DNA from: Takakia lepidozioides
Lineage: Eukaryota > Plantae > Bryophyta
Assembly (NCBI GenBank): GCA_030704615.1
Contig: CM060731.1
Span: 8,370,001 to 8,434,000, forward strand
Length of the DNA stretch: 64,000 bases
Reading direction: 5' to 3'
Shown piece after piece: positions 4,277-42,400 of the stretch. The first letter of the stretch is position 1. Every line of letters starts with the position of its first letter. A program made the translations under genes and the position numbers. The notes beneath the pieces were generated by a model, which saw only the letters and a program-made list of their open reading frames with translations, was not told where the DNA came from and ran no database searches.

Positions 4277-5128
4277 TATACATACTCACCTCCCAACCGC
4301 TGGTTATCTATTTGCTCTACTTTGCAAAATACCCTGTGTGTGGTTATGTATACCTACTAACCGGGGTGGTAACCGACTCACTAACCGGGGTAGAGTGTTA
4401 TACCCGGCCAACACTGGTCTATTCCCACCTCCCTATTGGTGGCTCCTACCATCCCTATTTCCTTGACCTTCAAACGAGTTACGTGCTAGGATAATTATCC
4501 CTATAAGTATGTTTGTATTTTTTAATTTTTATATTTAATGAAACATAACAATATTATTTCAAAGTCTTGAAAGAACTATTGAGAACCGAGATGCACACGG
4601 TACCCAGCAGTCCATGGTGAAGGGAATTCTAGCTCCACAACCCCTTTTTTATTTCTTCTTCCCATATATTCTTTAAAAAACAATTGTAACACAAAGGCAA
4701 AGAAGTACCCCTATTTTTTTTATAGATATAATTTTGATAATACCACTGTGACAACCCTTTGTTAAAATTAAATATTTTAAAATCTTTATTTTCAAGAGTT
4801 TATTGGACTCTATGTTTTATCGCACATGGTTTGAAATTCATGCCGAGTGACTTCCCCTAGGCTATGTTGCACCCTCGATGAAAATGCCATACATGGACCG
4901 GGGAAAAAAAATCCAAAACGTGAGACCCGCTAAACATTGCTAAGCACCTTCTATCGACCAAACATGGTAAAAAAGAAAAGTTTTATGGAAATCCGATGGA
5001 AAAATCTAATCAGCTTTATTCTTTGGATGAAAACACGATGATATGAATGAATAGTATCCATGTGGAACGCGATCGACAAGTCGTGGAGCGCACCTTGTGG
5101 AACTGGTTGTACATATAGACTCGCGCAA

Positions 5129-5440
5129 TGTCAAGTTATTTTACCACTAGTGTGAAGTTAGCTAGGAAATAGCTAGCTTTTATATATTGACATTTGGGAT
5201 TGACCCAAGTGTCAATCTAGGGGCCAATACATGTTTGGGCACCTGGCATTGTTATCTTCACGGCAGATCGCGGTGGGCTCATCTTTCTCGAGTTGAGCCT
5301 CACCGCGTCTAGCTATGGCGCCGTAGTGTGGATTCCCCATGGCGTGCACTTGGCTCCACTTAATATATGAGTGATGTTTTCATGTGCGAGTGTGTGAGTT
5401 TGAGAGAGCTTGTATGCTTGTATTATTCTTTTCCTTATCA
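5129..5440 (+). repeat. Left terminal repeat B1 (3' part of the LTR only)
   Basis: 312 bp, from tgtcaag to ttccttatca. Matches 15593-15909 with about 14 substitutions and one 5-bp indel by manual count. Confidence 0.95.
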
Positions 5441-5452
5441 CTCGAGAAAGAT
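5441..5452 (+). promoter_or_regulatory. Self-complementary primer-binding site (Tf1-like self-priming)
   Basis: ctcgagaaagat lies directly after the LTR-terminal CA and is the exact reverse complement of atctttctcgag at 5281-5292. There is no TGG-starting tRNA PBS. Confidence 0.75.
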
Positions 5453-8175
5453 CAGCTCGAGTCTGTGAGTGCCAGGTTCGAGTTAGTTGTAGCACTTGTG
5501 TTTTCAGATCATGAGAAGCGGTTCAACCTAGAGTGCAGGGAGCCGTGCATGAGCCTATCCAAAGCGGATAGAGTGCAAAGGCAAACATGTTGCAGGTTTG
5601 CCATGGATAGAGAGGCGGGTAGCCTATGTTGAAGAGCGGCGTTGCATAGCTCAACGCTATGGCAACCAAGTTTGGGCTTCTAGTGTGAAGCGGAGGAGAT
5701 GCTGGCCATGAGTGGACGAACTGGTGGTCGTCTTCTTCAGCTGCAGGCCGAGTTAAGGAGCTGCTGAAATGTGGGTTGCGCATGGGAAGTTAGCATGTTG
5801 CAGGTTGGAGATGATATGATCAGCTCCAAGTATGTGCCAGAAACGAGTTGTTGCGGATAGATGAGGAGCAGTCGAATGGCGGAGCTGCGAGGGGATGCAT
5901 CGCAACCTATTGGGAGCTGCAGCTCCAACCTCATGAAGAGGTATGAGTGAAGAGAGGGGGCTGGTCCCTCTTGTGTGCAAATCAGTGCACTTGTGAAGTA
6001 TTGCTTGAGTTGGAAGTTTCAATCTGAAACTCTAGCACGGCGAGGGCTCTTGGAGTGGCAAGAGCGGGGCTGGAAGGTTAGCAGTGAGGCGTCCTAGAGC
6101 CAGGGAATGTGCAGTAGAACTGCAGGTACACCAAGTTTATCAAGGTGTGTATTTTCAGATTCACTTTTGTGAGTTTCGTGGAGAAATGGAGCTTGTTGGG
6201 CAACATATAGCTTGCTTGTTGAGTTGGGGGCACTTCTAGTGGGCCGTGAGAGCTCAGGAGTGCAGGGCGACGGGGCTGATGGCTTCACAGAAGCCATAGC
6301 TCAGCGGCAGCAGATGCAGGAGCAAACCCCAGCTCGGGGAGAGCTCGGGAACGCGTGGGAATGTCGGGAACGCCAGGAACGCCTCGGGAACGCATGGGAA
6401 CTCGTTGGGAGTTCCAGGGAACGCAAGGAATAGTGGCCGTGATGGACCGTTGGGGCGGTATCACGAGATACCACGAGCCCAGATCGTGATGGTTGACCGT
6501 GACCGTTGACCTTGACCGTTGGAAGCCGTTGTGCGGACACAACGGGTTGGCACGGTGACCAGATCGTGGGAATGGCGGGCCGTGAAGGCTCATGGGAGTG
6601 GTACTACGGGGTATCACTGGGCAGCCCGTGGCCAACGAGCGCCTAGGGCGGGCCGTGAGGAGTAGTGGCGGTTGGAGCCACGGAAGGCCGCGAACAGTTA
6701 GAGTGAAAAATAAAAATAAATAAAATAAAATAAATCTTTTTTCACTCGTTTCGTGGGACCTTGATGGGGAGGCTGGGCTCTGAAGAACAACGGTTTTGAG
6801 CTAGCTGATCCGGCAGAAAAGTCGGAATTGCCTCCCTGTTATGTTTTAACAAAAGGGATTACTTCCCTACAAGTAATCTTTTCGGGTTTTCAGCCCAATT
6901 CTTAATTATGGGGAAGACCAGCCTGCAGGTAATTCCTTTGGACAGAATGTTGTTGGGGCCTATATGTACCTCTATTTGCTCCATTTTTGAACCTTCAGTG
7001 AACGGTGTGGTTTCCTGAGGTGGTTCCATTCGGAGGAATGGCTGGTGGACGTAAGGAGGCACTGGCGGACCCTGTGGAGGCTTGCATGGGGCCTTGGAGG
7101 CCAAGTTTCATGAGTTCGTGGAGGGCGGTTTGAGGAGTGTCTACAGGATGCTCTCATGGTCATGCAAATGAGAGAAGAGAGGAAAAAAGAGGGTGTTGGG
7201 ATGAGAGCGTGCTTGGGATAGGCATTGCTTTAGCTTCTCTTCCTCGTAGCTTTCCACCTTCTCTATAGGGCGAGACCTTTCTGTAGGTGGAGGCAAGAGT
7301 CAGTCCGGGTTTGGGCTAGGTTGCAGGAGCGACACTGTGGAGTTGTTTTTGGTGTGGGGGAGTTGTTGTTTTCATTCTTGTGTTTGGATCCCCTCCACAC
7401 CCGCATGCTTGATTGTGCGCCATGCTAGTTTTGTGTGGGCGCTTGATTTTATAGGTGGTGGACTCGGGCTTGATCGCCGATCCCACCCTAGAGCATGCTG
7501 TCGATGGTGAGGCTGGGGTGATGACTAGTCAGACCATCTTTGTTTCTCCTATGGTGAGGTTGGAGGTGATGACCAGCCAACCATAGGAGTACCTGCGGTG
7601 GATGCAGGTGCAGGTACAGGCTATGTTAGGAACCTAGCATTCCAAACCATAAGCCGCATCAGGTTCTCTACCCGGTTACCTTATGGAGAGGGGGTTAGAG
7701 ACAGGTTCATGACCGGTTGAGTGCCACTTTGTCAACACGGAGGTGCCACTAATTGCTGGGGAAAGTGCCGGTACGAGCACTAACGATATTAGCGAGTATA
7801 CGAGACGAGGTGTGCGGTTTAGGCCACCTTCACCTCCTGTGTCTTCTACGGAAGGTTCTGATTCGGATTGTGAATCAGAAGGACTCACACCGGCGGTGCA
7901 AGTTGTTTCCTTGCCATTGTTGTGGGACACGATGGAGGAGATGTATGGAGCCACCAAGGGGCGACGAAGGTACTCTGGGGCGGTGGGCACCATTGAGTTG
8001 GATGATTTTATCTAAGAGTTTGATAGTTGGTGTGACTTGCAGCAAATGCGCAATCCACAACTGTTTACGCCTTTCATGGCATGGAAAGGGCTGTTTCAGC
8101 ACCTTGAGGGGCCGCCCATGGTTGATTACCATGAGTTTAGGGGGGGGGCACGATGCTGAGATCAAGGAGTGAAGG

Positions 8176-9945
8176 ATGTACTGGTCACCCGACTATGTCT
8201 CCATCACTAGAGGCACTAGAGGCACAAGGGCAGCAGCCACACCGGCAGCTTCACCAGCAGCAGCAGCTACAACAATAGCTTCCACGAGCACTAGTGAGAC
8301 TAGTGGTACAACAACTACAACGTCCACCCAAGCTATTGCTGCACCAGCACCAGTGGCAGTGTCTGCATTCAACCCTGTTGTGGAGTTCTTCAAAGAGTTG
8401 AGAATGAACTACCAAGGGGTGAGGACAGAGAAGTTGAGGAGCTTGCAAGAGTTCCAACGGAAGCCTATTCAGAGCTTGAGGGAGGCTTTCACTCGCGTTA
8501 CGGAGGCTCAGGCAGTCCAGTTCTGGTACAAGATATTGGACAAGGAGCTGAAGGGAAGGGTGCGAGATGCAACTCTCCTACAAGCGGCCCAACCCACCTT
8601 AGCAAATGTGTTTTTGCTGGTAGAGTGGATAGAACTCAACATGGTGGAGGAATGAGTGGTCATGGTGGGATTTGCTAAGGAGGCACCACGGGGTAGTGGT
8701 GCTCCTAGCCAGCCACTACCTCAACGTGCTCAAGGCAGCAAGGGGGCTCTGGTGAAGCCCAGGGAAGGGCAGAGAGGACCTCAGATGCAGGGGTCTCTCC
8801 CTTCATTTGCTGGCCAACAACGGACGGATGTGGTGTGTTGGACATGTGGAGGACCCCATGTCAAGAAGGATTGCCCAGAGGGAGGCAATGATTTGGCACC
8901 GGCACAGCCTGCACAGGTGCAGTGTGGGCATTGTGGTAGGTACGGGCATGGAGAGGCCCAGTGCTATGGTTTGCACCCTGAGTTGCGCCCAGGCCAGTTC
9001 CAAGGGAACAATGGTGGTCGGGGGCAAGGTGGAGCAGCCCAGAGAGGACGAGGTGCAGGCCAAAGGCAAGCTCAACATGGCCAAGGACGCGGAGGTCAGG
9101 GTGGTGACCAAGGCATGGCCAACCGGCTTCAGCAGCTAGAGCAGAGGCTCGCTGCCATGGCCACAGCTCAGGTGATACCGGCTCCAAGGCTGGATGGTCC
9201 ACCTCCTGCTCCTGAAGGAGGAGACTTAGGAGGCATGGGATTCATGTGCGGGGCAGCACTACCACTAGTAAGGGGTGTCATTACCACTACCACTATGGGT
9301 GGGGCACCACTACCACTGGTGAGGGGTGCCACTACCACTACCACTTTGGGTGGGGCACCACTACCACTAGTGCCGGGCAGTACTACCACTACCACTATGT
9401 GCGGGGCAGGACTACCACTAGTGCAAGTGGAGTCAGTTGCGGCAGTGACTGGAGGAGCAGCACGAGTTCCTGAGCCACGGGGTGCGGAGGTGTAGTTGGA
9501 TCCACAGCGTGGGGAGGTAAGCCGTTAGGCCAGGCTTCCTCAGTCATTCACATTGGCGGAGACAGTGTCGACGCCGTCCATGGGACCTAGTTCCCGCCCG
9601 ACTGTTACTGAGGCGGAGGTTACTATGCCATTGGTGAGAGCTACACGGGCAGCACCACTACCTAGTGTTGCCAAGGCTACGGTAGCTAGTGTGCTGCTGG
9701 GGGCGGCCACAGCTGTGTGCCAGGCTCCATTGTTCTCGACTACCATGATTGCGACGCCGGGGGTAAGACCAGCTGAGGTGTTCAGGCTGGCAGCGACACT
9801 CTGTGAGAGTGTGGAGGTTACTTCATCTTCTGCGGAGATAGTGGGAGGTGTAGTGCCGGAGGGATCCTCGGATGTGAGGGGTCAAGACTGCCATGGCGGC
9901 GCCATGGCAAGCTGCAGCTGCCAGGTTGATGGAGCTGTCAGCTAG
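8176..9945 (+). pseudogene. gag: Gag with two CCHC zinc knuckles (interrupted by stops)
   Basis: One frame across ORFs 8176, 8656 and 9553. Gag-core-like EKLRSLQEFQRKPIQSLREAFTR, knuckles CWTCGGPHVKKDC and CGHCGRYGHGEAQC, and an RGG/Q-rich region. Confidence 0.85.
9244..9424 (+). repeat. In-frame 51-bp tandem repeat (~3.5 copies, 17 aa)
   Basis: Units start at 9244, 9295, 9346 and 9397: MCGAALPLVRGVITTTT / MGGAPLPLVRGATTTTT / LGGAPLPLVPGSTTTTT / MCGAGLPLV. Confidence 0.9.
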
Positions 9946-10405
9946 GCCAGCCATTGAGCGCGCCATGGTGACACCTGGAGTTGTCATGTTAGACAACCAG
10001 GATGGCATTTTCTGTTTGAGTGGACCGGCAGGCAAGAGGTACCGGCCACTGCGGGTCTTGTTGGACTCGGGAGCTCAGCCATTGATGCTGGGCAGAGCTG
10101 CTATTGCAGGCTTGGGCCTCACGGAGGTGGATATAGAGCCGTGTCTTTTCCAGATACAGACATCTCTGGGAGGATCAGAGCAGGCTCGGGGCATGACACG
10201 ACGTGAGTTGGCTATCAGACTACAGCCGGATCATCCTACAGATGGCTCAGTGATGAGAGCCAAGGCCATTGTGACAGACGCGGTCTCGTACGATGTCCTT
10301 GTTGGTGGGGCAGTGTTGTACCCCATGGGCTTCACCCTGGATTTTTGGGAGGAGTCAGCTTTATATAGGCATGGATGGCAGTCAGGGGAGGGCCGGCTTG
10401 TGTAG
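9893..10405 (+). pseudogene. Retropepsin aspartic protease domain of Pol
   Basis: RVLLDSGAQPLM catalytic D-S-G motif and the C-terminal YDVLVG motif. Confidence 0.9.
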
Positions 10406-10780
10406 CTCCCGGTGACATTCATAGGAGGAGTTGCGGTTGCCCAACGAGGCAAGATGTCACTGGCAGCATTCACAACTGCAGTGACTTGGCCTGGAGAGTT
10501 GTTGGATGGCAACACTCATTCAGAGGATGTGTCACCTCCGGGAGAGCATGATGACATGTATGGTATGGCGGAGTTGCCTGCCATGGTTGCTCACACTCCA
10601 TTGTGGGGCTCGAGCAAGGATTTGCAGCGGGTTGCTGATTGTCGTGTGTAACAAGCCTGGGTAGAGGCTTTTGTACCGTCAGGAGAGGACGACAGTGCGG
10701 GGATTGCACCAGGTCCACCTCAATTGTCACCATTGGACACCACACCGATCATGTGGCAGTGTCCGGATGAAGGCATTTGC

Positions 10781-11740
10781 CTTCTGGACTTGTTTGGCGG
10801 GATCAGCATCGGATTGGCTGCTGTTCTACAGGCAGGTGTACGGGTACGGCGTTACCTGTATGTAGAGAGGGATGAGACTGCACGACGCGTCTCCCTACGC
10901 CATGTTGCTCAGTCGGTGCAGCAGTACCCTGAGTTGTTGCCGGTGTCTGCAGTTCGTGGATATCAGCAGGCCTTGCCAGGAGACATTTCGTTGCTGGGGG
11001 CGCAGGATTTGGAGTGGGTTGGCTCCATTGATTTGGTAGTGGCAGGTTGGCCCTGCCAAGGGTATTCATCAGCCGGGCATGGCAATGGATTGCGAGACTC
11101 GAGGTCGGGTCTACTTTGGGAGATGGTGCGGGTTTTGTGCCACTTACAGCTTCATCAAGTTGTATCTCCACAATACATCTTGGAGAATGTGCCACTGATG
11201 GACAATTTTCGGGCCAAGGTGATGGCCAGTGTGCATCAAGTCCGGTCGTGGCTTGGGTCAGCAGTGTTGCTGGATGCAGCTGTAGTGGGGTCACGGGCTC
11301 ATCGTCCACAGTTATGGTGGACTAACTTGATGCCACCCGCACTGCTTAAACGTGCATTTGATGGGGTGTAGTGGCCAGCATACCTCACAGTGGATAGCAT
11401 TTTGGACACAGGGAGGCAGTCTTAGCGTGTGAGACACGATGACCGTTCGCCTTTGGCAGTGGTCAACAAGGTGGGTCGACCACGAGCAGCACTATCTACA
11501 CTGTTCAGCTTCCCAGGATTGCATGCTTTCCGGGATAGCGGACCTGGCCTCCTGTGGGATGCTCAGTTGCAGCAGTTAGTGGAGCCTAATGCCGACGAGC
11601 GAGAGCGGGCTATGGGTTTTTCCACTGGGACCACAACGGTGTCTTCTCTTTCTAAGGCATCACGTCGTCAAGTGTTGGGGCAAGCGATGGATCTAAATTG
11701 CTTGACCTGGATTATCAGCTTGGCTATGGCTGAGCAACGT
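10781..11740 (+). pseudogene. DNMT3-like C5 cytosine DNA methyltransferase domain inside Pol
   Basis: Motif I LLDLFGGIS, II YLYVERD, IV IDLVVAGWPCQ (PC at 11051-11056), VI YILENV (11183), VIII RAHRPQLWWTNL (DNMT3 AHRARYFWGNL-like), IX ERERAMGF (11597), X RRQVLGQAMD (11663). Same frame as PR and the RT N-terminus. In-frame TAG stops at 11369 and 11423. Confidence 0.93.
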
Positions 11741-12129
11741 AGAGTGCAGAGTGCACTTCCCTTGACGGTCTCTCTACCTACCGAGATGGTACAGGCAGTG
11801 AGTAGGGGCGAGCCGGTGAGGACCACGGGGTGTAGACATCCATGACACACGTGGGAGGTGCTCGAGGTTCAGAGGGAGTTGGCAGCCAAGGCGGCTGTGA
11901 TGGATGAGGTTGGGGATTCTTCTCGGGTTGAGGAGGTCCTCAAGGATGATATGATGGGGCAGGATGAGGCCTTGTCATTGACTGAGCAGGCAGGGAGTAC
12001 TACTCAAGAGGTTGCGGCATAGCAACCACGGGACGCGTCCTCTACCTCTAAGTCTGCTGGACTTAAGGTTGCAGTTACGGAGGACAATTGGGAGCCTGAC
12101 AGTGGACCCATTGTCACTGGAGGAGAGAG

Positions 12130-12959
12130 ACGACGTATATGGCAGTTCCTGAGGGCTTACAAGAATTGCTTTGCCTTCAGTTTGAAGGATTTGGGAGCAC
12201 TGAAGGGTCAGGAGATTCGTATTGAGTTGGCCACAGACACGCCAATCTTTCGGAGACCCTATAGATATAGTGACATGGAGAGGTCTTTGATTCAGATGAG
12301 GACAAGATCTCTAGGAGGCTGGTTTGGTGGAGCTCTCTGGTGGAGAGTATGCTTCAACCACGGTGATGCCAGCCAAGAAGGATGTCTATGGCAATTGGAC
12401 GGAGAGACGTATGTGCGGTGATTACCGGCCTGTAAATGGTTAGACCAAGTCCGATAAGTATGCCATGCCCACACCGGAGGAGATCTTTGATGCCATTGGG
12501 CATGCCAAGGTCTTTAGCACTTTGGACTTGCGGTCCGGATATCACCAGTTGCCGATCAAGGAGGCGGACAAGCAGAAGACGACATTCTGGGGGATCAATG
12601 AGCACGGGAAGGATTGCCTATATCAGTGGCGATTCTTACCATTCGGGCTTCAGAACGCTCCTGCAGAGTTCCAGAGAGTCATGGACAGGATTCTAGTAGG
12701 GGTAGACTTTGCTCGGTGCTACATAGATGACATCATTATCTTTAGTGCTACGGTGGAGGAGCACGAGAGACACCTTCAGGTGGTGTTTGAGCGCTTGAGA
12801 GCGCACGGATTGAAATTACATCCGGGGAAGTGCAAGTTCTTCCACAACCAGATTGAGTATCTGGGCCACATGATATATCCTGGAGGATTGGGGGTGCAGC
12901 AGACTAAGGTAGAGGCCATCGCACAGATTCCACGTCCCACGAATGTGAGCCGAGTTTGA
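12130..12959 (+). pseudogene. Gypsy-type reverse transcriptase domain
   Basis: PIFRRPYR, RRMCGDYR, FSTLDLRSGYHQ, LPFGLQNAPAEFQR, YIDDIII, KCKF..YLGH. Frameshift near 12305. Confidence 0.97.
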
Positions 12960-12965
12960 GCTTTC

Positions 12966-13589
12966 ATGGGGTTGGCAAACTACTATAGACGGTTTGTCAA
13001 GGGATTTAGTGCTATTGCAAAGGCTCTAACCAAGCTGACCAAGATAGACCAGGAGTGGCAGGGGGAAGATGAGCAAGAGCGAGCTTTTCCGGAGCTCAAG
13101 GCGAGGTTGACGTCGGCGCCGATCTTGAGACGACCTATCAGGGGGCGTCCTTTTCAGGTGCATACAGATTGGAGCATGTTGGGGCTTGGAGCGGTGCTCA
13201 CACAGGTGGATGATGAGGGAAGAGAGTTCGTAGTGGCTTATGCTAGCCGCTCGAACAACGCTGCAGAGTCTAAGTATAGCTCATATGAGGGGGAGTGCTT
13301 AGCTGCAGTGTGGGCCGTGGCACACTTAAGGTGCTATCTATACGGCAATCTCTTCACCCTTGTCACGGATCACCAGCCTCTAAAGTGGTTGATGGAGTCA
13401 GACAAGCTTACGGGGAAGCTTGCACGGTGGGCACTTATACTCCAAGAGTATGACTTTCAGGTTGTGCATCGACCGGGTTTGGTCAATAGGGATGCAGATG
13501 GATTGAGTCGCAATCCATGCACGAGCCAACATGATGACACTAGAGCTCGGTGGCATGGTGAGACAGACGAGGAGATGGTGACGGGATGA
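12966..13589 (+). pseudogene. RT connection and RNase H domain
   Basis: VHTDWS..GLGAVL, YSSYEGECLAAVWA, LVTDHQPL, NRDADGLSR. Confidence 0.95.
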
Positions 13590-13844
13590 CATGCATATGC
13601 CTTTTTGTGTATCTTGGCATTAGGAGGTCAGGTTGGACCTACAACAGGGATGACTGTAGACGGAGTGTCTGAGGACCTTGAGGCTAGTGATGAGCTAGGT
13701 GGTGCTAGAAATATACATGAGGATTCGGTTGGGTTGGACTACCTCCGCACTGGAGACACGGCAGCTAGTGTGACTGCCAAGGAGAGGGATCGGATCCTAC
13801 AACGAGCCAAGAGGTTCAAGTGGGAGGGGATACACCTGCTTTGA

Positions 13845-14900
13845 GTGTGGGAGGATGGTCGGGTGAGGATCGTGCCTCACCCAACACAGCGTGCACGGTT
13901 AGTGCGGCATGCCCATGAGGAGTTGGGGCATTTTGGAGTGCGACGCACTCATAGTTTACTGCAAGGGCAGTATTGGTGGCGTGGTATGCACACAGAGGTG
14001 CAACAGTTCGTGGGTGCGTGCTTCATTTAACGCCCCTACACCACAGTTTCATCCTTTACCCATCATGGGATTGGGCTACAGGTGGAGGGCCTTTGCCACT
14101 GACGATGCGTCACCACATATATGTGTTGGTGATGGTGGAGCACTTCTCCAAGTGGATTGAGTTGGTTCCATTGCCTGACAAGGCTAGTGAGGGGGCTGCG
14201 TATGCATTCCTGGATCGTGTGCTTAGCCGATTCGGTGCTCCAGCTGAGGTACTCACGGACCAAGGGAGAGAGTTCTTGGGGGAATTTCAGGCTTTGTGTG
14301 ATAAAACCTTGATAGACCACCGTACCACTTCTCGGGATCATCCTGAGACCGATGGCTTGGCAGATAGAGTGGTGCAGACGGTGAAGAGGGGTTTGCACAA
14401 GTATGGCTTGCAAAAGGGACACCTAGGAGATTGGGATCTTCAGGTACCTTGGTTAGCCATGGGCTACAGGTTCAGCAAGCAAGCATCACTTGCCTCCTTC
14501 TCACCATATTTCCTTCTCTTTGGCCAAGAGCCGGATTTGCCTGCATCTATTCGCAGGGAGGCTGCAATAGTCCTCAACCTTGATGATCGGGATGTGTGGA
14601 CACAAGCATGTGCCCAGCGAGTCATGCCTATGGCTTTTGAGAATCTTGCTATTGCCCAACACCAAGACACATTGAGGTATGCCACTATACGTGGAGGGGG
14701 ATATCGGCCAAGTGTTCGGCGTTTCCACCCTGGGGACTATGTGTATCTGCAGCAGACAGTGCCTACGACCTTGGATGTCACAGCAGGACGTGTGATTCTA
14801 AGGGTCAGGGAGGTGTTACCTTCAGGAGTGTTGATTCTGGAGGGTCGAGATGGCATGGTATGGAAGGATCATGTGTGCAATTGTGCGCCATGTCACCTTC
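13845..14900 (+). pseudogene. DDE integrase (HHCC zinc domain, core, C-terminal domain)
   Basis: HAHEELGHFG..YWWRGM..FVGAC (partly deleted), VMVEHFSKWIE, VLTDQGREF, HPETDGLADRVVQTVK, FSPYFLLFG, FHPGDYVYL. Confidence 0.93.
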
Positions 14901-14956
14901 TACATGTGGATGGGAGGATAGATCCCAACCTTGCAGTGGTACCTGCAGGATTGCGT

Positions 14957-15081
14957 TGCATGCTATGTGGGCATGCTCGTGGTGCCGCCACTATGCTGGT
15001 GTGTGATCGATGCTCAAGAGGTTGGCACATGGGATGCTTGACACCACCTCTTGAGAGGGATCCTGATTATGTCCACCTTGC
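14957..15081 (+). pseudogene. PHD finger at the integrase C-terminus
   Basis: CMLC..MLVCDRCSRGWHMGCLTPPL, completed after a small deletion or frameshift by *LCPPC (15064-15081; TGA probably from TGG). Together this gives a C4HC3 pattern. Confidence 0.88.
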
Positions 15082-15339
15082 TTGGGATAGTGGTAGTGGA
15101 TATGACTAGTGGCAGCTCACAAGACATGGGAGGCCAAGCTCATAGGAGTCAATACCCAAGATCTCAGGCTCAAGTTCACAGGTTGCAAGACGGCGACTAA
15201 TGATTGGGCAACTCTTGTACCCGGCCTCTTGATCTATTGAGTTTGAGTGTAGTAGGGACAATGGTGGAGGACCTAGTGAGGCTATGACCACTATTACATC
15301 TTGTGGCTACCTGGACTTAGAGGGACCTAAGCGCCAGCT

Positions 15340-15350
15340 AGGGGGGCGAT
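15340..15350 (+). promoter_or_regulatory. Polypurine tract
   Basis: aggggggcgat immediately before the TG that starts the LTR. Confidence 0.7.
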
Positions 15351-15909
15351 TGTGATGGACTAGTGGCTGCACTAGTGGTGGCTAGTGGCAGCCTAGTGGT
15401 TGGACTAGTGGCAGCACTAGTGGTGGCTAGTGGCAGCCTAATGGTTGACTAGTGGCTGCACTAGTGGTGACTAGTGGTTGTCTAGTGGCAGCCTAGTGGT
15501 GCACTAGTGATAGACTAGTGTTTGGTGTACACATATGTTGTGTGGTTTGGATAGCGATGTAGTTGTGTAGCGATATGTATGCGCACGACAGCTGTCAAGC
15601 TATTTTACCACTAGTGTGAAGTTAGCTAGGAAATAGCTAGCTTTTATATATTGACATTTGAGATTGACCCAAGTGTCAATCCAGGGGCCAATACATGTTT
15701 GGGCACCTGACGTTGTTATCTTCACGGCAGATCGCGGTGGGCTCATCTTTCTCGAGTTGAGCCTCACCGCGTTTAGCTTAGGCGCTGTAGTGTGGATTCT
15801 CCATGGCGTGGGGTGCACTTGGCTCGACTTAATATATGAGTGATGTTTTCATGTGCGAGTGTGAGAGTTTGAGAGAGCTTGTATACTTGTATCATTCTTT
15901 TCCTTATCA
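15351..15909 (+). repeat. Complete LTR (A+B, TG...CA, 559 bp)
   Basis: Starts tgtgat after the PPT and ends ttatca. A is a ctagtgg array. The A/B boundary is gaca-gc-tgtc at 15587-15596. Confidence 0.9.
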
Positions 15910-15910
15910 T

Positions 15911-16197
15911 TGTGATGGACTGGTGGCAGCCTAGTGATGGACTAGTGGCTGCACTAGTGGTGACTAGTGACAGCCTAGTGGTGGACTAGTGGCTGCACTA
16001 GTGGTTGGACTAGTGGCTGCACTAGTGGTGGCTAGTGGCAGCCTAGTGGTTGGACTAGTGGCTGCACATAGTGGTGACTAGTGGTTGTCTAGTGGCAGCC
16101 TAGTGGTGCACTAGTGATAGACTAGTGTTTGGTGTGCACATATGTTGTGTGGTTTGGACATCGATGTAGTTGTGTAGCGATATGTATGCGCACGACA
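15911..16197 (+). repeat. Right terminal repeat A2 (5' part of the LTR only)
   Basis: Matches 15351-15590 with ~47 bp of extra array units and ends at gcgcacgaca. Confidence 0.93.
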
Positions 16198-18006
16198 ACA
16201 ATAAGGTAAGAAACTGTAGGTGAAAAATCCACAACAGCAAATTAGGGTTCCAATATTTCTGAAGGTCGGAAAAAAAAAAAATATCAATGGAGTGGCCAAC
16301 GGGGAGGGAGGCCACTAGTTGGAATGGATGAGATGTGAGGCCATGTGTAGATGAGAGCATAGAAGTAGGATACATGAGGTGGCGGGGGCGGTGGCCCTTT
16401 CTCTAGAGTTTTCCAAAAAAGTAGGAGGCGGTGGGGCCCCCTTCTACAAAGCTCCACCACCGTCCTCATAGAGTATATAAAAGAGGGTGAGGGTTGGGTG
16501 AGGGCTACCTTCTACACGACTTCTTCCGCTCAACCTTACTTTGGTAGGCTCTACTGCAATCAAGGCCCTTTGAAAATGTAAATTGAAACCTGAACCATCT
16601 TTAAATGAATAGAAACATCAAATGTCTGTTGTGGGATTTGCTTTTCAGACATTGACACGATGGTCCATCGCTTTGGTCACAAGTCTAGTGTGAACATTGT
16701 AGCTCATTTGAAATAACTTCAATTTTTGAGTAAAAACGCTTCAATTTCAACAAATAAAAATACCAAAGTTAATTGAGAATACAGAGGCAACTTATTTAGT
16801 GTTGGGGTTGTTAAAATCGTCAAACAAAGTCTCTCCATTGACTCTCCATGAAAAAAAATCTTTATGCACATTCTTTGTTGTTGTTTTCAGCTCCTTGAGC
16901 GGATCTCTATCAACAAGATTGTTCTACACACAAATTTGAAGATAGAACAAGAAAAAGACCAATTAATCAGTATTTATCACCCTTTTTGGGATTTCAAAAC
17001 CAAATCGTTAATGACCTATGAGTGGCACATAGTGACAGGATGATTTAAACATTGGGCTATTTTGGATAACTGACAGTGTTTAAATTAGACAATATTACAA
17101 ATTGTTATGACATGACAAATGTGATATAGAAGAAACTCTTGTGTGTCTAGTGCCTGAGCTGCTCTATATTCATCAAGATTTTGAAATTGGATTATGGAAT
17201 TGAAGTGGGTGCGGCTATAAGCTTTGGTAAACTTGTTGACTTTTTTGGAAAACTCTGCATCCCATAGCCCCATCAATTTTGTGGTGGGCAAATAATATTT
17301 CCTAAGGTAGAAGACCTTTGTCCATCACAAGAATTGGGCTTGAGATGGTAAGAAAAAAATGCAACATCTCTTAATGGGGTTGCATAAGATTTTTTGTTTG
17401 TTTGTTTGTTTGTTTGTTTATTTATTTTAGAATAGTTTACTGTAAATTGCTGAGAGGACCTTATAACAGTACATGTTGTTTTATAGGGTTTCAAAGTCTA
17501 TACGTTATAAAATTTTGTCTCATATTGTTGGAGTTTAAGGTGATTTTCAAATGGTGCCAATGCAATACTAATTTAAAGAGTTGCATGAAATGAGACAAGT
17601 ATGTTGAAGATCAATGAAATATTTAATCTTTGTACTAAAATGTATGAAAAATAGAATATGCCTAAATATCAATTTGCTTATAGAAGAATATTTAACTAAA
17701 CTCACCATTTTATAATTCATGAACATGTACCATTGCTTTGGGAGCTTGCTTTCGTGGCCCCCAAATCAGCTGTATCTCTGTTATTTATACTATTAGAGAC
17801 ACTAGAATTCTTTGTTTGTTGGTTCCTCAAGCATCCATAGATGCCGATGGTGATTTGTGGTGTAGAATCCACAGTGGGAAGCATGAAAACCAAAGAGCCG
17901 CTTCTAAATAGTATTATGTCCATGGCTTAAGCTCCCAAGCCCTTCAGTTGTCTTAGGGTCGTCCTTGCAAGATCTTTTAATCCATTCTGTCTTTGGTTCC
18001 CTATAG

Positions 18007-21415: not shown

Positions 21416-23994
21416 ATGGCGTACCAGTACCAGTACCCGCCGGCCGGGAGTGGACAGTGGAGCTCGGGCATCTGCGGATGTTTTCAGGATTTTGAATCGT
21501 GTAAGTGAACTGAGGGGTTTCCCTCCTCTCTCGCTGTCTCTCTCCATACATTTCATAGTTAGGAGTAAGAAAAGAAGCTTCCCATGGGCAACTGCAGATA
21601 CCACATTCTTGTTTCTCTATATCCGCAATGCATTTGGACTTCACTTGTGGATCGGAGCTTCTGGGTTCTTACAACCCCCCACCTTCTAGTTCCTTCGCCC
21701 TCTGGCTAGTAGCTGCGTGCAGGGAGAAAACTGCGATCGTGAATATATGTGGTTTGAGGATCGCATGTCTTTGAATGGTGCCACCGTATGGAGTGTCGAG
21801 CTATTTCTCGGAACCATTCTGCCGCACCATGAATATCCCGTCCACCCTGGAAACTCAAAACTGAAGAGTGTTGAGTGGACTTCGCAACCATCGGCCGACC
21901 AATACATGAAACGAGAAATGAACATGTACAAATGGTTTCTACAGATTACAGAATGAGAGATTTTAAGCACAGTTTAATGTTACGAATCTCTTCCAGAAAC
22001 AAGATTGATAGAGCTAGTGTAGATTGCTGATATCCCCTACCCATTGCGGATCGTGTGCCCTCTCCCTTCACCAGTTTAGAGTACCTTGTACCACTGACAG
22101 TGACAACTCCTAGTAGTGTGACGTGTTCAGCAACCGCAGAAAGCACTTTGCATGGGACTTGGGCAATTTTGGGTAGTACACACCAAAGTTCCTGAATTAG
22201 GGAAAGAATGGGGAAAGAAACCTGGACTTGCCATCCAGGGTAGGGGTTAAATTTGAAAGACATCTTAAGGCGTGTAGCTGCCCTGAAGCTGATGGGAAAC
22301 CAAAAAATTAGCCTTTTTCTTAAACATGGAACCCGATATTTAGACTTTGTTAGCAATTTCGTCAATGAGCCAAGCTTTGGTGCTGCTTTGGGTTATGCAA
22401 GGAACTCCCAATAAATGGCTGACTCCTCTTTCATTAGCATACAAGCCTGTCACAAATGCAGCTCCTCGTTCTTTCACAATTGAAGTGGAATCTGACAAGA
22501 TGTTAGAGGGTTCATATGGTAGAACTACTCTTCTTATGTTATATTTGTATGAGGTTTAAAGGGCGTTGTTTTGAATTACCCTTGGAATGATGGATAATTT
22601 ATTAGCATGCCTTTTGCATGGCAACATTGCAACAGGCTTCTTCCTTCTTTCTGCAGTGCGGTTTGCAGTTATGCTGGTATATGAAGGTCAAAATGGCTCT
22701 TCAAGGCCATGGAAGGGTGTCAGGCTTACCCCTGATCCATAGGTGAATTGATCCGCCAACGCAGTTCTAAATGGATTGGAACCCACGGGAATTCTCCCCT
22801 AGTACATTTGATTCCCAAATGAGTGACTCCTTGTTGTTTGGCTCAACTCAATATCCTCTGAATGGGTGGGCAGGTATGTGTGCTTGGTGCTGTCCATGCG
22901 TACTTGTTGGACAAATTGCGGAAATCGTTGACCAAGGCGCCACTTGTACGTGCTCTCCGTCTCTTCTCCTTGCTCTCTTGTTCCTCTGGCTCATTTTCAC
23001 AACCCAGAATTGCAGGCCAATGTCGACCTAAATTTGTTATAATTATCTGTTGTATTTTAACCATCTGGTCTTTCACCAACATTTTGTGGGCATTTACTAC
23101 TTGACTGTATCCATGACATTTGGCACTCCATGCACCACCATTCACCACATTTGCCAAACTTCTCTTATTTCACCTACATACCTTGGATCATGCATGTGAT
23201 GACTTGTGTGGCCAGTCTCCATTCCTTACAAGAGTGCACATGGTGTGGGGTGCCTGAAACAGCATGTGGAAGTGCTGGAGCCATCTATGCACTGCTGACT
23301 ATCTTCACAGGCTGTGGATGTCTGTATTCATGTGGCTTCCGAGCCAAGCTGCGCCATAAGTACGGCCTTCCTTTGCAACCATGTGGCGATGTCTGCACTG
23401 AATGGTGCTGCACATGCTGCTCCCTTGCCCAACAATATAGGGAGCTCAACTCACGTGGCATTAATCCAGTCCTTGGTATGTTTACAGGCTCTACTGGCTC
23501 TACTTCCCTGTTTCTTGTTGTTCTCAACTCCTGTGGTGTCAATCCGGTCCTTGGTATAAGGGATAAAGGAGCAAGAGCCCCTGTTAATATTGAAGAGTCG
23601 AGAAGGAACTTGAGCGGACATAGACCAAGATGGTTGTGATTGTTTCCTAGTCAGCCACTTATTTCTTTGCATACATATGTTTTATGTCTGATAGCTCAGG
23701 ATTTGGGGAAGTTCCATTAGGTTGAAGGAATGAAGGCCTAGACTTTTCTTATTCTTTTCCCTCCACTAGATGTGTAACTGGGTTGACAAGTGGACCAGTG
23801 GTCCCTGGAGTACTGTACAAATATTACATTCATAGAAAATTTAGCCAGATCATGCATCTACCTCACGGTTCCATCTTTTCTGTGTGTGGTTTGCCATTGA
23901 CCCCAATGATAACCTTTTGTATTATGCAGGATATGAGGCCAATAAAGCTACATACGAGACCCAGGCACCACCTATGCAAAAAATGTATGGATGA
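21416..23994 (+). CDS. PLAC8-domain protein (Plant Cadmium Resistance / Cell Number Regulator, fw2.2-like), 144 aa, 4 exons
   Basis: Exons 21416-21500, 22874-22945, 23263-23475 and 23930-23994, all GT-AG, 435 nt in total. Motifs WSSGICGCFQD, WCCPCVLVGQIAEIVDQG, RAKLRHKYGL, CCSLAQQYREL. Confidence 0.93.
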
Positions 23995-28906: not shown

Positions 28907-30452
28907 TTTTTTGTTTTTTTTTGTTTTTTTAGTTCACATTTTTTTTTTTTTTTTTTTTCTTTTGAAGAGGGGCGGAGGCCTCAGAATTTTATAAATAAAG
29001 GACATGAAAGTCCGAAAAATACAATAGGGCGAAATAACGGCGATGAACATAACAGAAAGAGATCACTACGAGAGAACCAAAAGGGAAAAATAACCTCTTT
29101 CAAGGGTGCCCTGGAGGCTGATCCAGGAAAGCTCTGCTTCGTGACCAACCAACCAAAGAGGGGGAAAAAAAGCAAACAGAACGATCTGTCGCCCCATAGA
29201 AGAGTCTCTAAGAGAGGCTAGGCCTTCAAGCCGTGGAATCGCAGATTAAAACTAGCATAGAAGCTAAGAAGCCACTGGCTGCAGTAGCAAAGAGGTGGTA
29301 ATGCTAGGGCAGAACGAAGAGTAATATAACCAGCCTGCTGCATCAGTAGTTCCCGCGGTTCTTTTTGTAAGTAACAAAAGAGAGGTGAGTCCTAGATCTG
29401 GTGGATCGAAGAGAATGGTGGTGCCTCCAATTTATTTCTAAATCGTCCTTCTCAACAAGTGAAGGTTGGGAGCTAAAGGAACTCCCAGCTTGGAGGGATG
29501 GAGTCCTTCCAGTGAATTCCAGTCCCTGCTGAATCTCTAGTGTAGATGGTGGCTCCTTTTCCCCAAGTGTCGTCGAATTTGGTGAGTAGCTGAGTCCCCT
29601 TTCTGCCCTCACACCTGCGAAGAGCTATTCCCAACACCCGCCACGCCCTACGGGCCTCAGACAACAGGTCTGAGTGAACCAGACAAAGAATCACTCTTAC
29701 ACTGCAAGGCCTCCCAACAAAGACATTGGCACATCTGCCCACAATTTACCCTGCAAGAAATTTAAAAACAGAATGGAAGGGCAAGGCATTGGAAGCTGTT
29801 TCCATTGGCTATAGAAAGCCAGGACCTGCACCCAAACAACAGCAACAAGAGGGCATTCAAACAGACAGTGTTCTAATGATTCCGAAGCCTGTAGCCCACA
29901 AGAAGTACATAACATGGAGCCATCCGAGATGTGAGCTTTGACAGGAAGGATTGTATTGACCAATTTCCATAAGAAACCAGTGATTTTAGAAGCCTTGTCC
30001 TTCTTCCAGACGTCACCCCAGATAACAAAGATCACAAAGGGACAGTCAGAAATGTAAGACCATTTCAAGGTCCATTTGGCATCCAGAGAGGAGGTTTTTT
30101 TGAGAAGGGAAGACCCCAGCTTTACCAAATATTTAAAAAAGGGGGTGCTCTTTCTATCATCCCAATTCCATTCGACTGGATCGAATTGAAGGAGTGAAAC
30201 TGGAGCTCGAAGGAACCATACAAGGAAGGGGTTTGTATGTCTACCCTGATCCAGCGAAGGATTTACCTCCCCCGTCGCCATGCAAATTACACGGATGGCA
30301 TAGCATTTGATCTCTTCAAGTTCACACAGAAGAGGGAAGGTTAGGGCACCCGAATCCTTAACCTGGAAACTCCATCCTTGGATTTGGTTTCTCTCCTTGG
30401 AGTTCTTTTCATTTTTCGTTTCAATTTCATATGACAAAATTGTGTGAAAGGT
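28907..30452 (-). mobile_element. 5'-truncated L1-type LINE (ORF2 C-terminus, 3'UTR, poly(A))
   Basis: ORF 29697-30455 carries a zf-RVT signature FLWKLV..LP..CTSCG..ESLEHCLFECP..VW. A poly(T) tract at 28907-28963 is the tail on the minus strand. Confidence 0.85.
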
Positions 30453-30723
30453 CAAAAATCTGTCAACCTGTCATGTGAAAGGCATTTTCTTAAAGTTGTA
30501 TGTCACAGTGGAAGTCAAAAAAAAAATTTAACCTGTCACAAAAAAGGTAGGGCTACCTGTCCAAAACATCACTAAAGTCTACTAGGTAGTGATCTCTTAA
30601 ATAGTCTCTACACAGGCTTCCCTGAAATTAAACAAGCCATGTGAGGTTGTCCTATGTAAGTTAGACCTTGTTGCCCTCAGGTTGACCGGAAGCTCAACGA
30701 GGTCAATTGGAGCTCGGCTGGGT

Positions 30724-39452: not shown

Positions 39453-42400
39453 ATGGAGTCAAGGAGTTATCCCTATTTCGATCCGGAGTATGAGACAAGC
39501 GGCTTCCGATCCAACCCTCCACGGTACGCACAGCTATGATGCATCGAGGGTGTGAGCATGTGTTTCAGACAATTGGTAGTATGCATACACTGGGTATCTG
39601 GAAATAGAGCAGGAACGGGGCAAAACGTAGTCGGGCAGAGAGTACATCCGGTGTAGGCAGTCGAGCAGCTCCTCACTCTCCTTATCGTCCTCATCAATTA
39701 TGTCTTGCCTCAAACATGCGACTTCAAGGAGAGTGCCTGGGATTGGGGGAACAATTTTCCTCCGTTCCTGGTCAAACTTCCTGCTGGTCATTCTCATTTC
39801 TAGTTGGGTGCGCGGAAAGAAGATACGGAGAGAGCGGAACTCATAACCACGCGATATAAACTTTTGCTGTAATGTCGTGCCCTCGAGGGATTAGTAACTG
39901 GAAGGATGCCAAGCCTGCCCGAGGTCGTGGTGGGGTTGAAATCTACCAGGACACGACTAGATGCCCTACCTTTAGTTCATTCTTCCAGCGAGATAGTGAC
40001 ACTCCCCTTGCCGGTTTTGGTTTTTCAGCCCACCATGGTACGAGATCTAGCTGGCACGACCAAATATCTAGTTGCAAGAAGTTGAGTGTTGGTTGTTACT
40101 GCTGTTTTGGACCGTGTGCTAGGAAGAGTGAGGTTGCTCTAGGCGAGCAAGAGAGAAAGATAGAGAGAGAGAGACACAGACGTGTGTAAGCCTTAGTCCG
40201 TTCAGCTGTGCCCTACTCACTCGCTCTGCATGTTCTGGGGCTCTTCTGTCGTCTCGTTCCCTTGGCGTATATATGTTTAGTTATTGAGTAATACTATGGT
40301 CTAACGCCAATCGAACCTGCTCTGACTGTGCAGGATTGTAATAGACAACGGATCCTATGAAGACGCTACTCTCGTGAAGGTAACACTCTCTTCCTATTCC
40401 TGAACCGCTGTAGCTATGAACGACTCAGAAGGTTGAGTTTCAAGTGTTGGGCAGTATAATGGCTACAAGGTGGTGCAGCAATCTCATTTTCTGCCTCCAT
40501 GTTGTGATGCAGGTAGACAGCGCCAACATTCACGGGATTTTGCTTGACGTGGTGCAAGTTCTGTCAGATCTCGAGCTGATCATCTCAAAAGCGCATATTT
40601 CATATGATGTGGGATGGTTCATGGATGGTGAGGTCTTGTTGCCGAGCTTTTGTTGTGAGAAGTCTTTAGGCCATTCTCTGATTGTTCGTGATTGTAGATG
40701 TGTGCCTCCTTAATTTTTGCATCTCGAGTATGTTGCAGGCTTGGAGGAATTCCCTTGAGTTTTAAGTTTTTGTTTTCTTTTGGCTGCAGTTTTCCATGTC
40801 ACAGATCAGTGCGGCAGGAAAATCAATGACGAATCAACCATTTGCTACATTCAACAGGTTAGTTTCCTCCACGCCATTTGTAGACTAGATTGCTCTCTGT
40901 GTTCTAATGCAGCTCAGGCTTTGCACTTCCAAGTTTCCCATATGTCCAACAACGACTAACTCTAGGTGTTTTTCTTGCCAGACATTGGGAGCCAAGAAAA
41001 AACCATCATCCTCAAATGATCTATTGAAGTGCCCAGGAAGGTCTGTTGGGGTGAAATCTGTTGCTGAACACACAATCATAGAGCTTACAGGAAAAGACAG
41101 ACCAGGGCTTCTGTCAGAGGTATCAGCAGTACTTGCACACCTGAAGTGCAATGTGTATGCTGCGGAGGTTTGGACCCACAACTTGAGAGTGGCATGTGTG
41201 GTTTATGTCACCGATGAAGAAACTGGTGGGCCAGTAAATGACCTGAAGAAACTGGATCGCATTCGAGAACTTCTAAGCAAAGTGATGGGGGCCACAATGA
41301 ACTTGGCCGATGGAATAACACACACAGAGAGACGACTGCATCAGATGATGTTTGCTGACAGAGACTATGAAGGGAGTGACCAACCAGCCATGCCAAGGCT
41401 GCCAAACAACAAGGGGAAGCCCATCATTACGGTGCACAACTGTAGTGAGAGAGGCTACTCACTCATCAACGTTCAGTGTGCTGATCGACCAAAGCTGCTT
41501 TTTGACACTGTTTGTACTTTGACAGATATGCAATATGTGGTCTTCCACGCCACGGTTGACACTTCCGGTTCTGATGCTTTTCAGGCACTCATATACACCC
41601 TTCTCTCATGGGTCTGCTATGATTTGATTAGTAAGTCATTATGTGGTTCAACAGCTTTTGTCATACTCGATGCAATAACAAGTACCAGATGAAGATAGAG
41701 TACATCAGTCTAAGTGTGGCATTGGAGATATTTCTTGATTATCTGAGCTTTGATCACAGTGACCATCTCTCTGGCATCTCTATAGGGATCTTCACTGTAA
41801 GCCAGGGCCTTTGAGATGAGTGGAGGGACCTGTCAACCTCTTCAGGGGTTCTGATTGATTGTTGAAGTTTCTCACCTGGTAGAATGCCTTCTTGCAGGAA
41901 TATTATGTTCGCCAAATGGATGGTTGCACTCTAGATGCAGATGCCGAGGAAAGAGTAAAGAAGTGCCTAGAGGCAGCGATTGAAAGGAGATCTCCTGAGG
42001 TACTGCCTTTTGCTCATCTTGATATAGTACTGGCAAGCCAAACTGGGTAGTAATGTCATCTTTTGACTGGTGTTAAGGTAGCAGTCAGGATAGCACAGGA
42101 AAGAGCGCCTTTAAGTGCAATGTCAAAGTAACCTTTCTGTACTTAAGGACCATGAAGTATTCCAAAGCAAGAAAGTGGACAACTGAGAATCTGCAACCAT
42201 ACTTACATATCCTCCTTCTTGATGGTTGTAGGGTCTCAGATTGGAGCTCTGCACCAGTGACAGGGTGGGGCTTTTGTCAGATGTGACCCGCATCTTTCGG
42301 GAGAATGGTCTTTCAGTCACAAGAGCTGATGTCACCACACAGGGAGACAAGGCTGTCAATGTATTCTATGTCACAGATGCCTCAGGGAATCCTGTGGACA

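What the first reader, a model, noticed from the sequence alone, without database searches (positions are those of the whole stretch)
5129..16197. Split/permuted LTRs (B-internal-A-B-A) with both ends at an internal palindrome GACAGCTGTC
Seen: the left end has only the 3' part of the LTR (B, starting TGTC at 5129). The right end has a full LTR (15351-15909), one T, then only the 5' part (A, ending GACA at 16197). The two partial copies are exact complements. In the full LTR they join as gaca-gc-tgtc (15587-15596), a perfect 10-bp palindrome, and only the central GC is missing at the ends. The insertion therefore still has TG...CA termini, with gcaa/acaa flanks. Known: split direct repeats (A1..B1A2B2) typify tyrosine-recombinase retroelements (PAT, Ngaro, TOC1) that integrate circles, whereas this element has a DDE integrase. 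Inference: it is a 2-LTR circle opened and integrated at an att-like palindrome inside the LTR, either family-wide or as a rare event. Two independent truncations would be unlikely to meet this precisely.
Basis: partly seen in the sequence, partly recalled or inferred. Interest (0 to 1): 0.92.

Follow-up and report, generated by a model that had tools for sequence, protein, structure and literature searches.

The report
Gypsy retrotransposons cut inside their LTR
This is a dead copy of a family of moss/liverwort-type jumping genes whose inserted copies start and end at a short palindrome in the middle of their end repeat, which likely means the element joins the two ends of its DNA copy and is then re-cut there by its integrase, a route long thought not to be used by such elements.

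Summary
In detail: B(5129-5440)-internal-A-GC-B(15351-15909)-T-A(15911-16197), with both ends at the arms of GACAGCTGTC. It is not a one-off. In the same organism 29 contigs end at GACA and go on into unrelated DNA. In relatives, 21 of 21 distinct left ends start at the palindrome. No complete repeat is followed by the PBS or by host DNA. Seven copies with both ends show a 4-bp target duplication (25 of 28 bases). CACGACAGCTGTCA is shared by families whose LTRs barely align. The LTR-LTR joint is the U5 end fused to the first bases after the PPT, the two ordinary cDNA ends. The element is a self-priming Ty3/gypsy with a cytosine methyltransferase, DDE integrase and PHD finger, and no tyrosine recombinase was found. 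Best reading (inferred): integrase acts on an internal att palindrome of an end-joined cDNA. The same layout was noted once, in a figure legend on Klebsormidium KnitGypsy-Dnmt3 (PMC5890265), without explanation. Unexplained: the mirror product (cut in the other LTR) never appears, so a simple random cut of a 2-LTR circle is insufficient.

The parts
5125..5128 (+). left copy of the 4-bp target-site duplication (GCAA)
   Evidence: 4-bp length set by relatives
5129..5440 (+). B1: 3' part of the LTR (rest of U3, R, U5), starting at the right arm of the palindrome (TGTC)
5281..5292 (+). predicted RNA 5' end / self-primer, complementary to the PBS
   Evidence: 12-nt exact complement; pairs in the fold, z -2.87
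5441..5452 (+). primer-binding site of self-priming type, abutting U5
8173..9200 (+). gag remnant with CCHC-type knuckles, broken
   Evidence: tblastn to relatives; no Pfam hit
9878..10405 (+). aspartic protease region (LLDSG motif)
   Evidence: Asp_protease_2 hit in the intact relative L082, below the curated cutoff
10652..11845 (+). C5 cytosine methyltransferase domain (FGG, PC, ENV motifs), with a stop
   Evidence: Pfam PF00145 E 1e-12; relatives
12050..13586 (+). reverse transcriptase and RNase H, broken by stops and a frameshift
13850..15064 (+). DDE-type integrase (rve about 14114-14344) and C-terminal PHD finger (about 14957-15064), frameshifted
15340..15349 (+). polypurine tract
   Evidence: same tract in relatives
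15350..15590 (+). A1: 5' part of U3 with 22-nt tandem repeats, beginning with the T after the PPT
15584..15597 (.). conserved att-like site CACGACA-GC-TGTCA, intact only in the complete internal LTR
   Evidence: no variant at 12% or more
15593..15909 (+). B2: second copy of B, gives the RNA its 3' R
15909..15911 (+). LTR-LTR joint: U5 end fused to the first base after the PPT
   Evidence: same logic in 6 distinct relatives
15910..16197 (+). A2: terminal copy of A, ending at the left arm of the palindrome (GACA)
16198..16201 (+). right copy of the 4-bp target-site duplication (ACAA, one transition)

Best explanation
This is a decayed member of a clade of self-priming Ty3/gypsy retrotransposons whose inserted copies begin and end at a conserved palindrome inside the LTR, likely because the two ordinary cDNA ends are first joined and the DDE integrase then cuts that palindrome in the upstream LTR and inserts the two halves. 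Shown: the layout B-internal-AB-A, its repetition across copies and families, the conserved CACGACA-GC-TGTCA site, loss of the central GC, a 4-bp TSD, an intact PBS and PPT, and a joint made of the U5 end plus the first bases after the PPT. Inferred: RNA runs from R in B1 to R in B2; ordinary reverse transcription gives AB-internal-AB; its ends are joined, as a ligated 2-LTR circle or a non-covalent circle made by an RT end-to-end jump; a staggered cut after CA on each strand of CA-GC-TG gives two recessed CA-3'OH ends with 2-nt 5' overhangs, the usual substrate for strand transfer; repair removes GC and makes the TSD. B-internal-A copies would be dead ends from a double cut, a 1-LTR circle or later A/A recombination. 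Why only the upstream LTR is opened is not explained; I favour a step tied to cDNA completion over a random cut of a finished circle.
For: Own organism: 29 contigs end at 15590 with unrelated tails (median 255 nt, agreement 0.36), and 2 of the 8 pieces shown start at 15593 with long unlaid tails. Relatives (43 of 80 loci hit by LTR probes): 21 of 21 distinct left ends are flank|B, with 0 having A upstream; of 13 loci with A then B, 9 (6 distinct) continue into a second A, 4 are cut by the contig end, and 0 continue into PBS or host DNA. TSD: 25 of 28 bases match at 4 bp, against 4 of 21 at 3 bp, 6 of 35 at 5 bp, and 0.88 of 4 for non-cognate pairs; two more pairs across overlapping contigs are perfect (L052/L053, L034/L038). 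The best alignment in each of W/S1, W/L082 and S1/L082 ends on CACGACAGCTGTCA. The joint tracks each family's post-PPT bases (T in the window, GT in S1, GTTTG in S2), and S2's outer ends are not TG...CA. A and B divergence rise together within 4 copies (2.9/4.5, 7.0/7.7, 9.8/14.6, 16.5/13.5%), so A2 is renewed at each insertion. The intact relative L082 has DDE integrase and no recombinase hit. Retroviral integrases can cut palindromic LTR junctions (PMC1905944 abstract; PMC4372172 passages).
Against: No intermediate or enzyme activity was observed. The mirror product B-AB-internal-A is 0 of 21 left ends, which a symmetric circle does not predict. 7 distinct right ends are PPT-A|flank rather than AB-A. 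In the own organism only 6 of 68 loose-end rows were shown, so ordinary ends at 15909/15911 cannot be excluded (up to about 28 contigs could hide in one row), and no row for 15593 was among the six. A1 and A2 of this copy differ by two repeat-unit indels. S2 copies carry only decayed palindromes, and S2 gave no palindrome alignment to the other families. The relatives are short-read metagenome contigs picked by a methyltransferase motif, probably from few host species.
Confidence: 0.78

Rival explanations
1. The joined precursor is a head-to-tail dimer of two linear cDNAs, cut at the first palindrome of each; no circle is involved.
For: It gives the same product and the same joint. A1 and A2 of the window copy differ by 22- and 23-nt repeat units, as two templates could.
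Against: A and B divergences match within 4 copies, and tandem-repeat slippage after insertion explains the indels. It needs two cDNAs per event and still predicts the unseen mirror product.
Confidence: 0.09
2. Integrase binds and cuts the upstream palindrome of the linear cDNA, inserts both halves, and host repair then joins the two outer cDNA ends on the chromosome.
For: It fits the layout, the TSD and the loss of TG...CA at the outer ends in S2. The L027/L028 joint holds extra PBS-like bases.
Against: Joints are precise in the window and in 6 of 6 distinct complete relatives; repair of a chromosomal break would be expected to vary (general knowledge).
Confidence: 0.08
3. Another enzyme acting in trans (a tyrosine recombinase of a DIRS/PAT/Ngaro element, or a DNA transposase) inserts the circles.
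For: The repeat layout is that of PAT/Ngaro split direct repeats (PMC4157794 passages).
Against: A 4-bp TSD, CA-3' ends and loss of the central 2 bp are the DDE signature. Tyrosine recombinases conserve the crossover core and make no TSD (recalled). The element keeps a conserved DDE integrase, and no recombinase hit was found in the 24 translated frames scanned.
Confidence: 0.04
4. One-off rearrangement, tandem insertion with deletions, or misassembly.
For: No read or contig spans the whole element; the window's TSD has one mismatch.
Against: 29 contigs with the same right end in the organism, the same layout with perfect TSDs in other genomes, and both junctions in contigs with 0 differences.
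Confidence: 0.01

Closest known systems
KnitGypsy-Dnmt3 of Klebsormidium nitens (de Mendoza et al. 2018, PMC5890265; I read passages, section 9 with the Fig. 4 legend, and searched 3 supplement files; the figure itself is not held)
   Same: Gypsy Pol carrying a Dnmt3-type methyltransferase; the legend says its repeats are arranged as in DIRS (A-coding-B-A-B) with Gypsy domains, which is this layout relabelled.
   Different: The paper gives no palindrome, TSD, joint or mechanism, and does not mention Marchantia or PHD (0 occurrences). Its sequence was not retrieved, so kinship is not tested.
Canonical Ty3/gypsy (Metaviridae), e.g. yeast Ty3; self-priming Tf1/sushi group (priming mechanism recalled)
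   Same: PR-RT-RH-IN order, PPT, self-complementary PBS, CA-3' ends, short TSD; Ty3 Gag-Pol is the best solved-structure hit (E 7e-100).
   Different: The inserted ends are not the cDNA ends; one LTR is split; methyltransferase and PHD finger are added.
PAT, TOC, Ngaro, VIPER tyrosine-recombinase retrotransposons (PMC4157794 passages)
   Same: Split direct repeats A1-B1-A2-B2; an implied end-joined intermediate.
   Different: No tyrosine recombinase found; DDE integrase, 4-bp TSD, PBS and PPT of LTR type.
Integrase cleavage of retroviral 2-LTR circle junctions (PMC1905944 abstract; PMC4372172 and PMC11054761 passages; PMC1180852 search listing only)
   Same: A DDE integrase cutting a palindromic site inside a DNA molecule.
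   Different: There the cut re-opens the end-to-end joint, restores the normal provirus and is a side route; the review says linear DNA was shown to be the active precursor. Here the joint is kept in the genome and a different, internal palindrome is used routinely.
Tcn1-like chromoviruses of non-seed plants (PMC2864245 passages); Gypsy-7a_cRei of Chlamydomonas (10.1101/2022.06.16.496473 passages)
   Same: Gypsy elements of the green lineage; Gypsy-7a has a PHD finger and 'LTR subparts' in its figure legend.
   Different: SM-Tcn1 has full TG...CA LTRs, a chromodomain and a 5-bp TSD. Whether Gypsy-7a is split cannot be told from the text.

Membership tests
Ty3/gypsy LTR retrotransposons | Pol order PR-RT-RH-IN with gypsy-type RT | tested here: met
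Ty3/gypsy LTR retrotransposons | DDE integrase with zinc finger | tested here: met
   rve in the window; H2C2 and rve in the intact relative L082; window copy frameshifted
Ty3/gypsy LTR retrotransposons | PBS after the 5' repeat, PPT before the 3' repeat | tested here: met
Ty3/gypsy LTR retrotransposons | 4-6 bp TSD and TG...CA termini | tested here: met
   4-bp TSD, 25 of 28 bases; termini TGTC...GACA
Ty3/gypsy LTR retrotransposons | Two complete LTRs whose outer ends are the integrated ends | tested here: not met
   0 of 21 left ends have a complete LTR; window
DIRS order (PAT/TOC/Ngaro/VIPER) | Split direct repeats | tested here: met
DIRS order (PAT/TOC/Ngaro/VIPER) | Tyrosine recombinase | tested here: not met
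   no such Pfam hit in the frames scanned; not every short frame was scanned; a loose motif search gave 3 hits in short antisense frames, judged chance
DIRS order (PAT/TOC/Ngaro/VIPER) | No integrase-type TSD (recalled) | tested here: not met
   4-bp TSD
KnitGypsy-Dnmt3 / streptophyte Gypsy-DNMT3 | C5 methyltransferase inside Pol | tested here: met
   PF00145; Dnmt3 type judged by eye from motifs, not by a tree
KnitGypsy-Dnmt3 / streptophyte Gypsy-DNMT3 | DIRS-like repeat layout with Gypsy domains | tested here: met
   against the legend
KnitGypsy-Dnmt3 / streptophyte Gypsy-DNMT3 | Common descent with the K. nitens element | tested here: inconclusive
   the only K. nitens hit (P0274, 54% over integrase) has no methyltransferase match and lies outside the starred clade
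Tcn1 chromoviruses | C-terminal chromodomain, full LTRs, 5-bp TSD | tested here: not met
   PHD instead; 4-bp TSD; reference features
Circle-integrating elements | End-joined DNA exists before integration and is the substrate | not testable with these tools
   inferred from the joint sequence only

The most novel reading that the evidence does not exclude
A green-plant-wide clade of Ty3/gypsy elements has moved the integrase att site from the cDNA ends to an internal palindrome and integrates obligately through an end-joined, circular intermediate, converging on DIRS-like split repeats with a DDE enzyme; the element's own methyltransferase acts as a timer that protects the older palindrome so that only the upstream LTR is cut.
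Probability: 0.2. Interest if true: 0.95.

Novelty: new variant of a known kind. Interest (0 to 1): 0.82.

Why it matters
That linear cDNA ends are the integrase substrate and 2-LTR circles a side product is textbook; the 1984 circle-junction model was set aside (PMC11054761). Here a whole clade leaves the joined cDNA ends in the genome and takes its termini from an internal palindrome, so circle-type integration by a DDE integrase becomes testable with a defined 14-bp site. It offers a route from LTRs to split direct repeats without a tyrosine recombinase. It also matters for annotation (inference): B itself runs TG...CA, so LTR finders would call B...B an ordinary element with no TSD and miss the true right end.

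Tried and rejected
No genome is held for the window, so copies could not be tabulated directly. An exact LTR pattern found 0 matches in metagenome contigs. Viral contigs gave nothing useful (L081 and L084 are weak unrelated hits). L083 is a weak methylase hit with no retroelement domains. The whole-element lay showed 24 of 3053 loose-end rows, none at LTR ends, and was uninformative on end types. Run X5 (share 0.07) was laid once and not used. TSD lengths of 2, 3, 5, 6 and 7 bp are at chance level. In one search the right end of L065 was set 2 nt too far (24 of 28); it was corrected from the visible A end (25 of 28). Dropped before counting: 37 of 80 loci with no LTR hit; L016 and partial B hits in L027/L028 (probe start missing); L060 (contig ends 1 nt after A); L039 and L079 (partial A). 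The exact self-primer search failed for S2 locus L079; a near-complement was seen using L073 and L079 together. A symmetric random cut of a covalent 2-LTR circle was rejected as a full account because the mirror product is absent. Literature: 10 searches found no description of the palindrome or mechanism; 'split LTR' with Gypsy and integrase gave 0 papers; the library lacks most subscription journals and Repbase, and bioRxiv supplements were closed. Look-ups of earlier findings by place, first words and sequence were empty.
Full report
Observation. The layout is as described. B1 is 5129-5440, the complete repeat is 15351-15909, a T sits at 15910 and A2 is 15911-16197. Both ends fall on the arms of GACA-GC-TGTC (15587-15596), the only perfect 10-bp palindrome in the repeat, and no other LTR piece is in the window. 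B1/B2 differ at 14 of 312 sites and A1/A2 at 7 of 241, plus indels. Contigs at single-copy depth cover both host junctions without a difference in X1, X2 and X4, three runs of one sample. They reach only 25-28 nt into the element, and the sample may be the assembly's source.

What the element is. Pfam finds a C5 DNA methylase, RT, RNase H, integrase core and PHD finger in that order. The copy is dead, with stops and frameshifts. The 12 bases after U5 are the exact complement of 5281-5292 and pair in the fold (z -2.87, 0 of 200 shuffles as good). This fits self-priming as in Tf1 (recalled). A PPT lies at 15340-15349. The nearest named relatives of the methylase are from Calypogeia, Marchantia and Sphagnum (up to 67%), so the host is likely a bryophyte. 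An intact relative, L082, has two open frames with protease-like, methylase, RT, RH, H2C2, rve and PHD hits and no recombinase hit. Its best solved-structure match is Ty3 Gag-Pol. Integrase-PHD relatives extend to Volvox, Haematococcus, Chlamydomonas, Scenedesmus and Klebsormidium. In a 30-row integrase tree the window copy groups with L017/L029/L057 and L065/L070/L073 in a starred 9-row clade (99/96), and with L082 in a starred 14-row clade. The tree is midpoint-rooted only.

Family-wide in the host. Laying run X4 on 15545-15960 placed 1044 contigs, 136 of them only partly. One loose-end row is at 15590: 29 contigs go on after GACA with a median of 255 unlike letters and 0.36 agreement, that is, many different flanks. 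Two of the 8 pieces shown are long contigs whose match stops at 15593. No variant reaches 12% between 15545 and 15646. Limit: only 6 of 68 rows were shown. Neither 15593 nor the ordinary ends at 15909/15911 were among them, so ordinary copies are not excluded in this genome.

Clade-wide. A methylase alignment fetched 80 loci from metagenome contigs (the best 80 of 169). Self-comparison showed the same layout in several. LTR probes from two single copies hit 43 of 80 loci. All 21 distinct left ends are host flank followed by B (16 start TGTC, 5 with one or two changes), and none has A upstream. Of 13 loci with A followed by B, 9 (6 distinct insertions) continue into a second A that ends at the palindrome, 4 are cut by the contig end, and none continues into the PBS or host DNA. 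Seven further distinct right ends are PPT-A then flank. In 7 copies with both ends on one contig (window included), 25 of 28 bases match as a 4-bp duplication: 4 are perfect and 3 have one mismatch. The 3-bp and 5-bp alternatives give 4 of 21 and 6 of 35, and non-cognate pairs give 0.88 of 4. Two pairs of overlapping contigs add perfect duplications (L052/L053, 100% over 2988 nt; L034/L038, 97.5% over 7019 nt). The window, S1 and L082 repeats barely align except at CACGACAGCTGTCA. S2 copies carry decayed forms of it. These contigs are short-read assemblies chosen through one domain and probably come from few hosts.

The joint. In each family the second A begins with the bases that follow the PPT upstream of the first A: T in the window, GT in S1 (AT in some decayed copies), GTTTG in S2. 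It is fused directly to the U5 end that the PBS abuts. These are the two ends that ordinary reverse transcription makes. S2's outer ends are not TG...CA, which suggests they are no longer att sites. A and B divergences rise together in 4 copies, so the terminal A is made anew at each insertion.

Mechanism (inferred). RNA from R in B1 to R in B2 gives AB-internal-AB. The ends are joined, and integrase cuts after CA on both strands of CA-GC-TG in the upstream LTR. This yields the normal processed-end geometry, and strand transfer with a 4-bp stagger gives B-internal-AB-A, which can be transcribed again. Retroviral integrases can cut palindromic junctions (PMC1905944, abstract; PMC4372172, passages), but there the cut restores the normal ends. 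A review describes the 1984 circle model as superseded by linear precursors (PMC11054761, passages).

Against a simple circle. A finished circle has two equal palindromes, and cutting the other one would give B-A-B-PBS at the left end. This was seen in 0 of 21 left ends, while B-internal-A copies are about as common as B-internal-AB-A. Possible causes are an RT end-to-end jump that rebuilds only the upstream site, protection of the older site by the element's methyltransferase, or quick loss of B-A by B/B recombination. None was tested. The rivals are a head-to-tail dimer (0.09), joining by host repair after insertion (0.08), a trans-acting enzyme (0.04) and a one-off or artefact (0.01).

Known or new. 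De Mendoza et al. 2018 state in the Fig. 4c legend that KnitGypsy-Dnmt3 has DIRS-type repeats with Gypsy domains; a search of its 3 supplement files added nothing on this. A 2026 preprint names streptophyte Gypsy-DNMT3 without discussing repeats (passages). PAT/Ngaro split repeats go with a tyrosine recombinase (PMC4157794, passages). Ten searches found no account of the palindrome, TSD or mechanism. Repbase, theses and most subscription journals are not covered. Two unchecked AI notes on other genomes describe what seems the same layout; they are not independent evidence. Verdict: a real, clade-wide variant of Ty3/gypsy with a relocated att site; the layout has been noted once and the mechanism was not found in print. 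Interest 0.82.

Noticed in passing
P0222, P0189, P0071, P0144, P0216, P0172, P0272: Methyltransferase-like stretches are detectable by BLASTP in chlorophyte integrase-PHD polyproteins (Chlamydomonas, Volvox, Tetrabaena, Monoraphidium) where Pfam lists none. In P0222, P0032 and P0033 they lie between RNase H and integrase; in the bryophyte-type copies they lie between protease and RT. DNMT-bearing gypsies look far more widespread than the 2018 paper reported.
   Followed up: partly
L082:1-9285: An intact eukaryotic retrotransposon, assembled with a 127-nt terminal repeat, is filed in a cyanobacterial MAG (likely contamination). Its two ORFs are in frame and separated by one stop codon, which suggests readthrough.
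   Followed up: partly
L027:13400-13561, L028: The joint between U5 and A holds 15 extra bases that start like the PBS; possibly a retained self-primer copy at an aberrant joint.
   Followed up: partly
L014:6323-6436, L019: An inverted PPT-A right end lies where the 5' repeat should be; a rearranged or nested copy.
   Followed up: no
window 9245-9423 and 15351-15520, 15911-16130: 51-nt tandem repeats between gag and protease, and 22-nt CTAGTGG-rich repeats in A that vary in number between A1 and A2.
   Followed up: no
window 59578-60156 and about 694-2400: piggyBac-type transposase fragment (PF13843); the 694-2400 stretch with a 300-nt duplication looks similar by eye and was not tested.
   Followed up: no
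window 23061-23639, 40889-41692, 29697-30470: Host PLAC8 and ACT-domain (ACR-like) gene exons and a LINE zf-RVT fragment.
   Followed up: no
window 46656-46665: A second GACAGCTGTC with no LTR around it; taken as chance.
   Followed up: yes
table 5c, 15881 to 15347: A contig of depth about 128 in X1 joins near the end of B back to the PPT/A start; perhaps a variant joint in a few copies.
   Followed up: no
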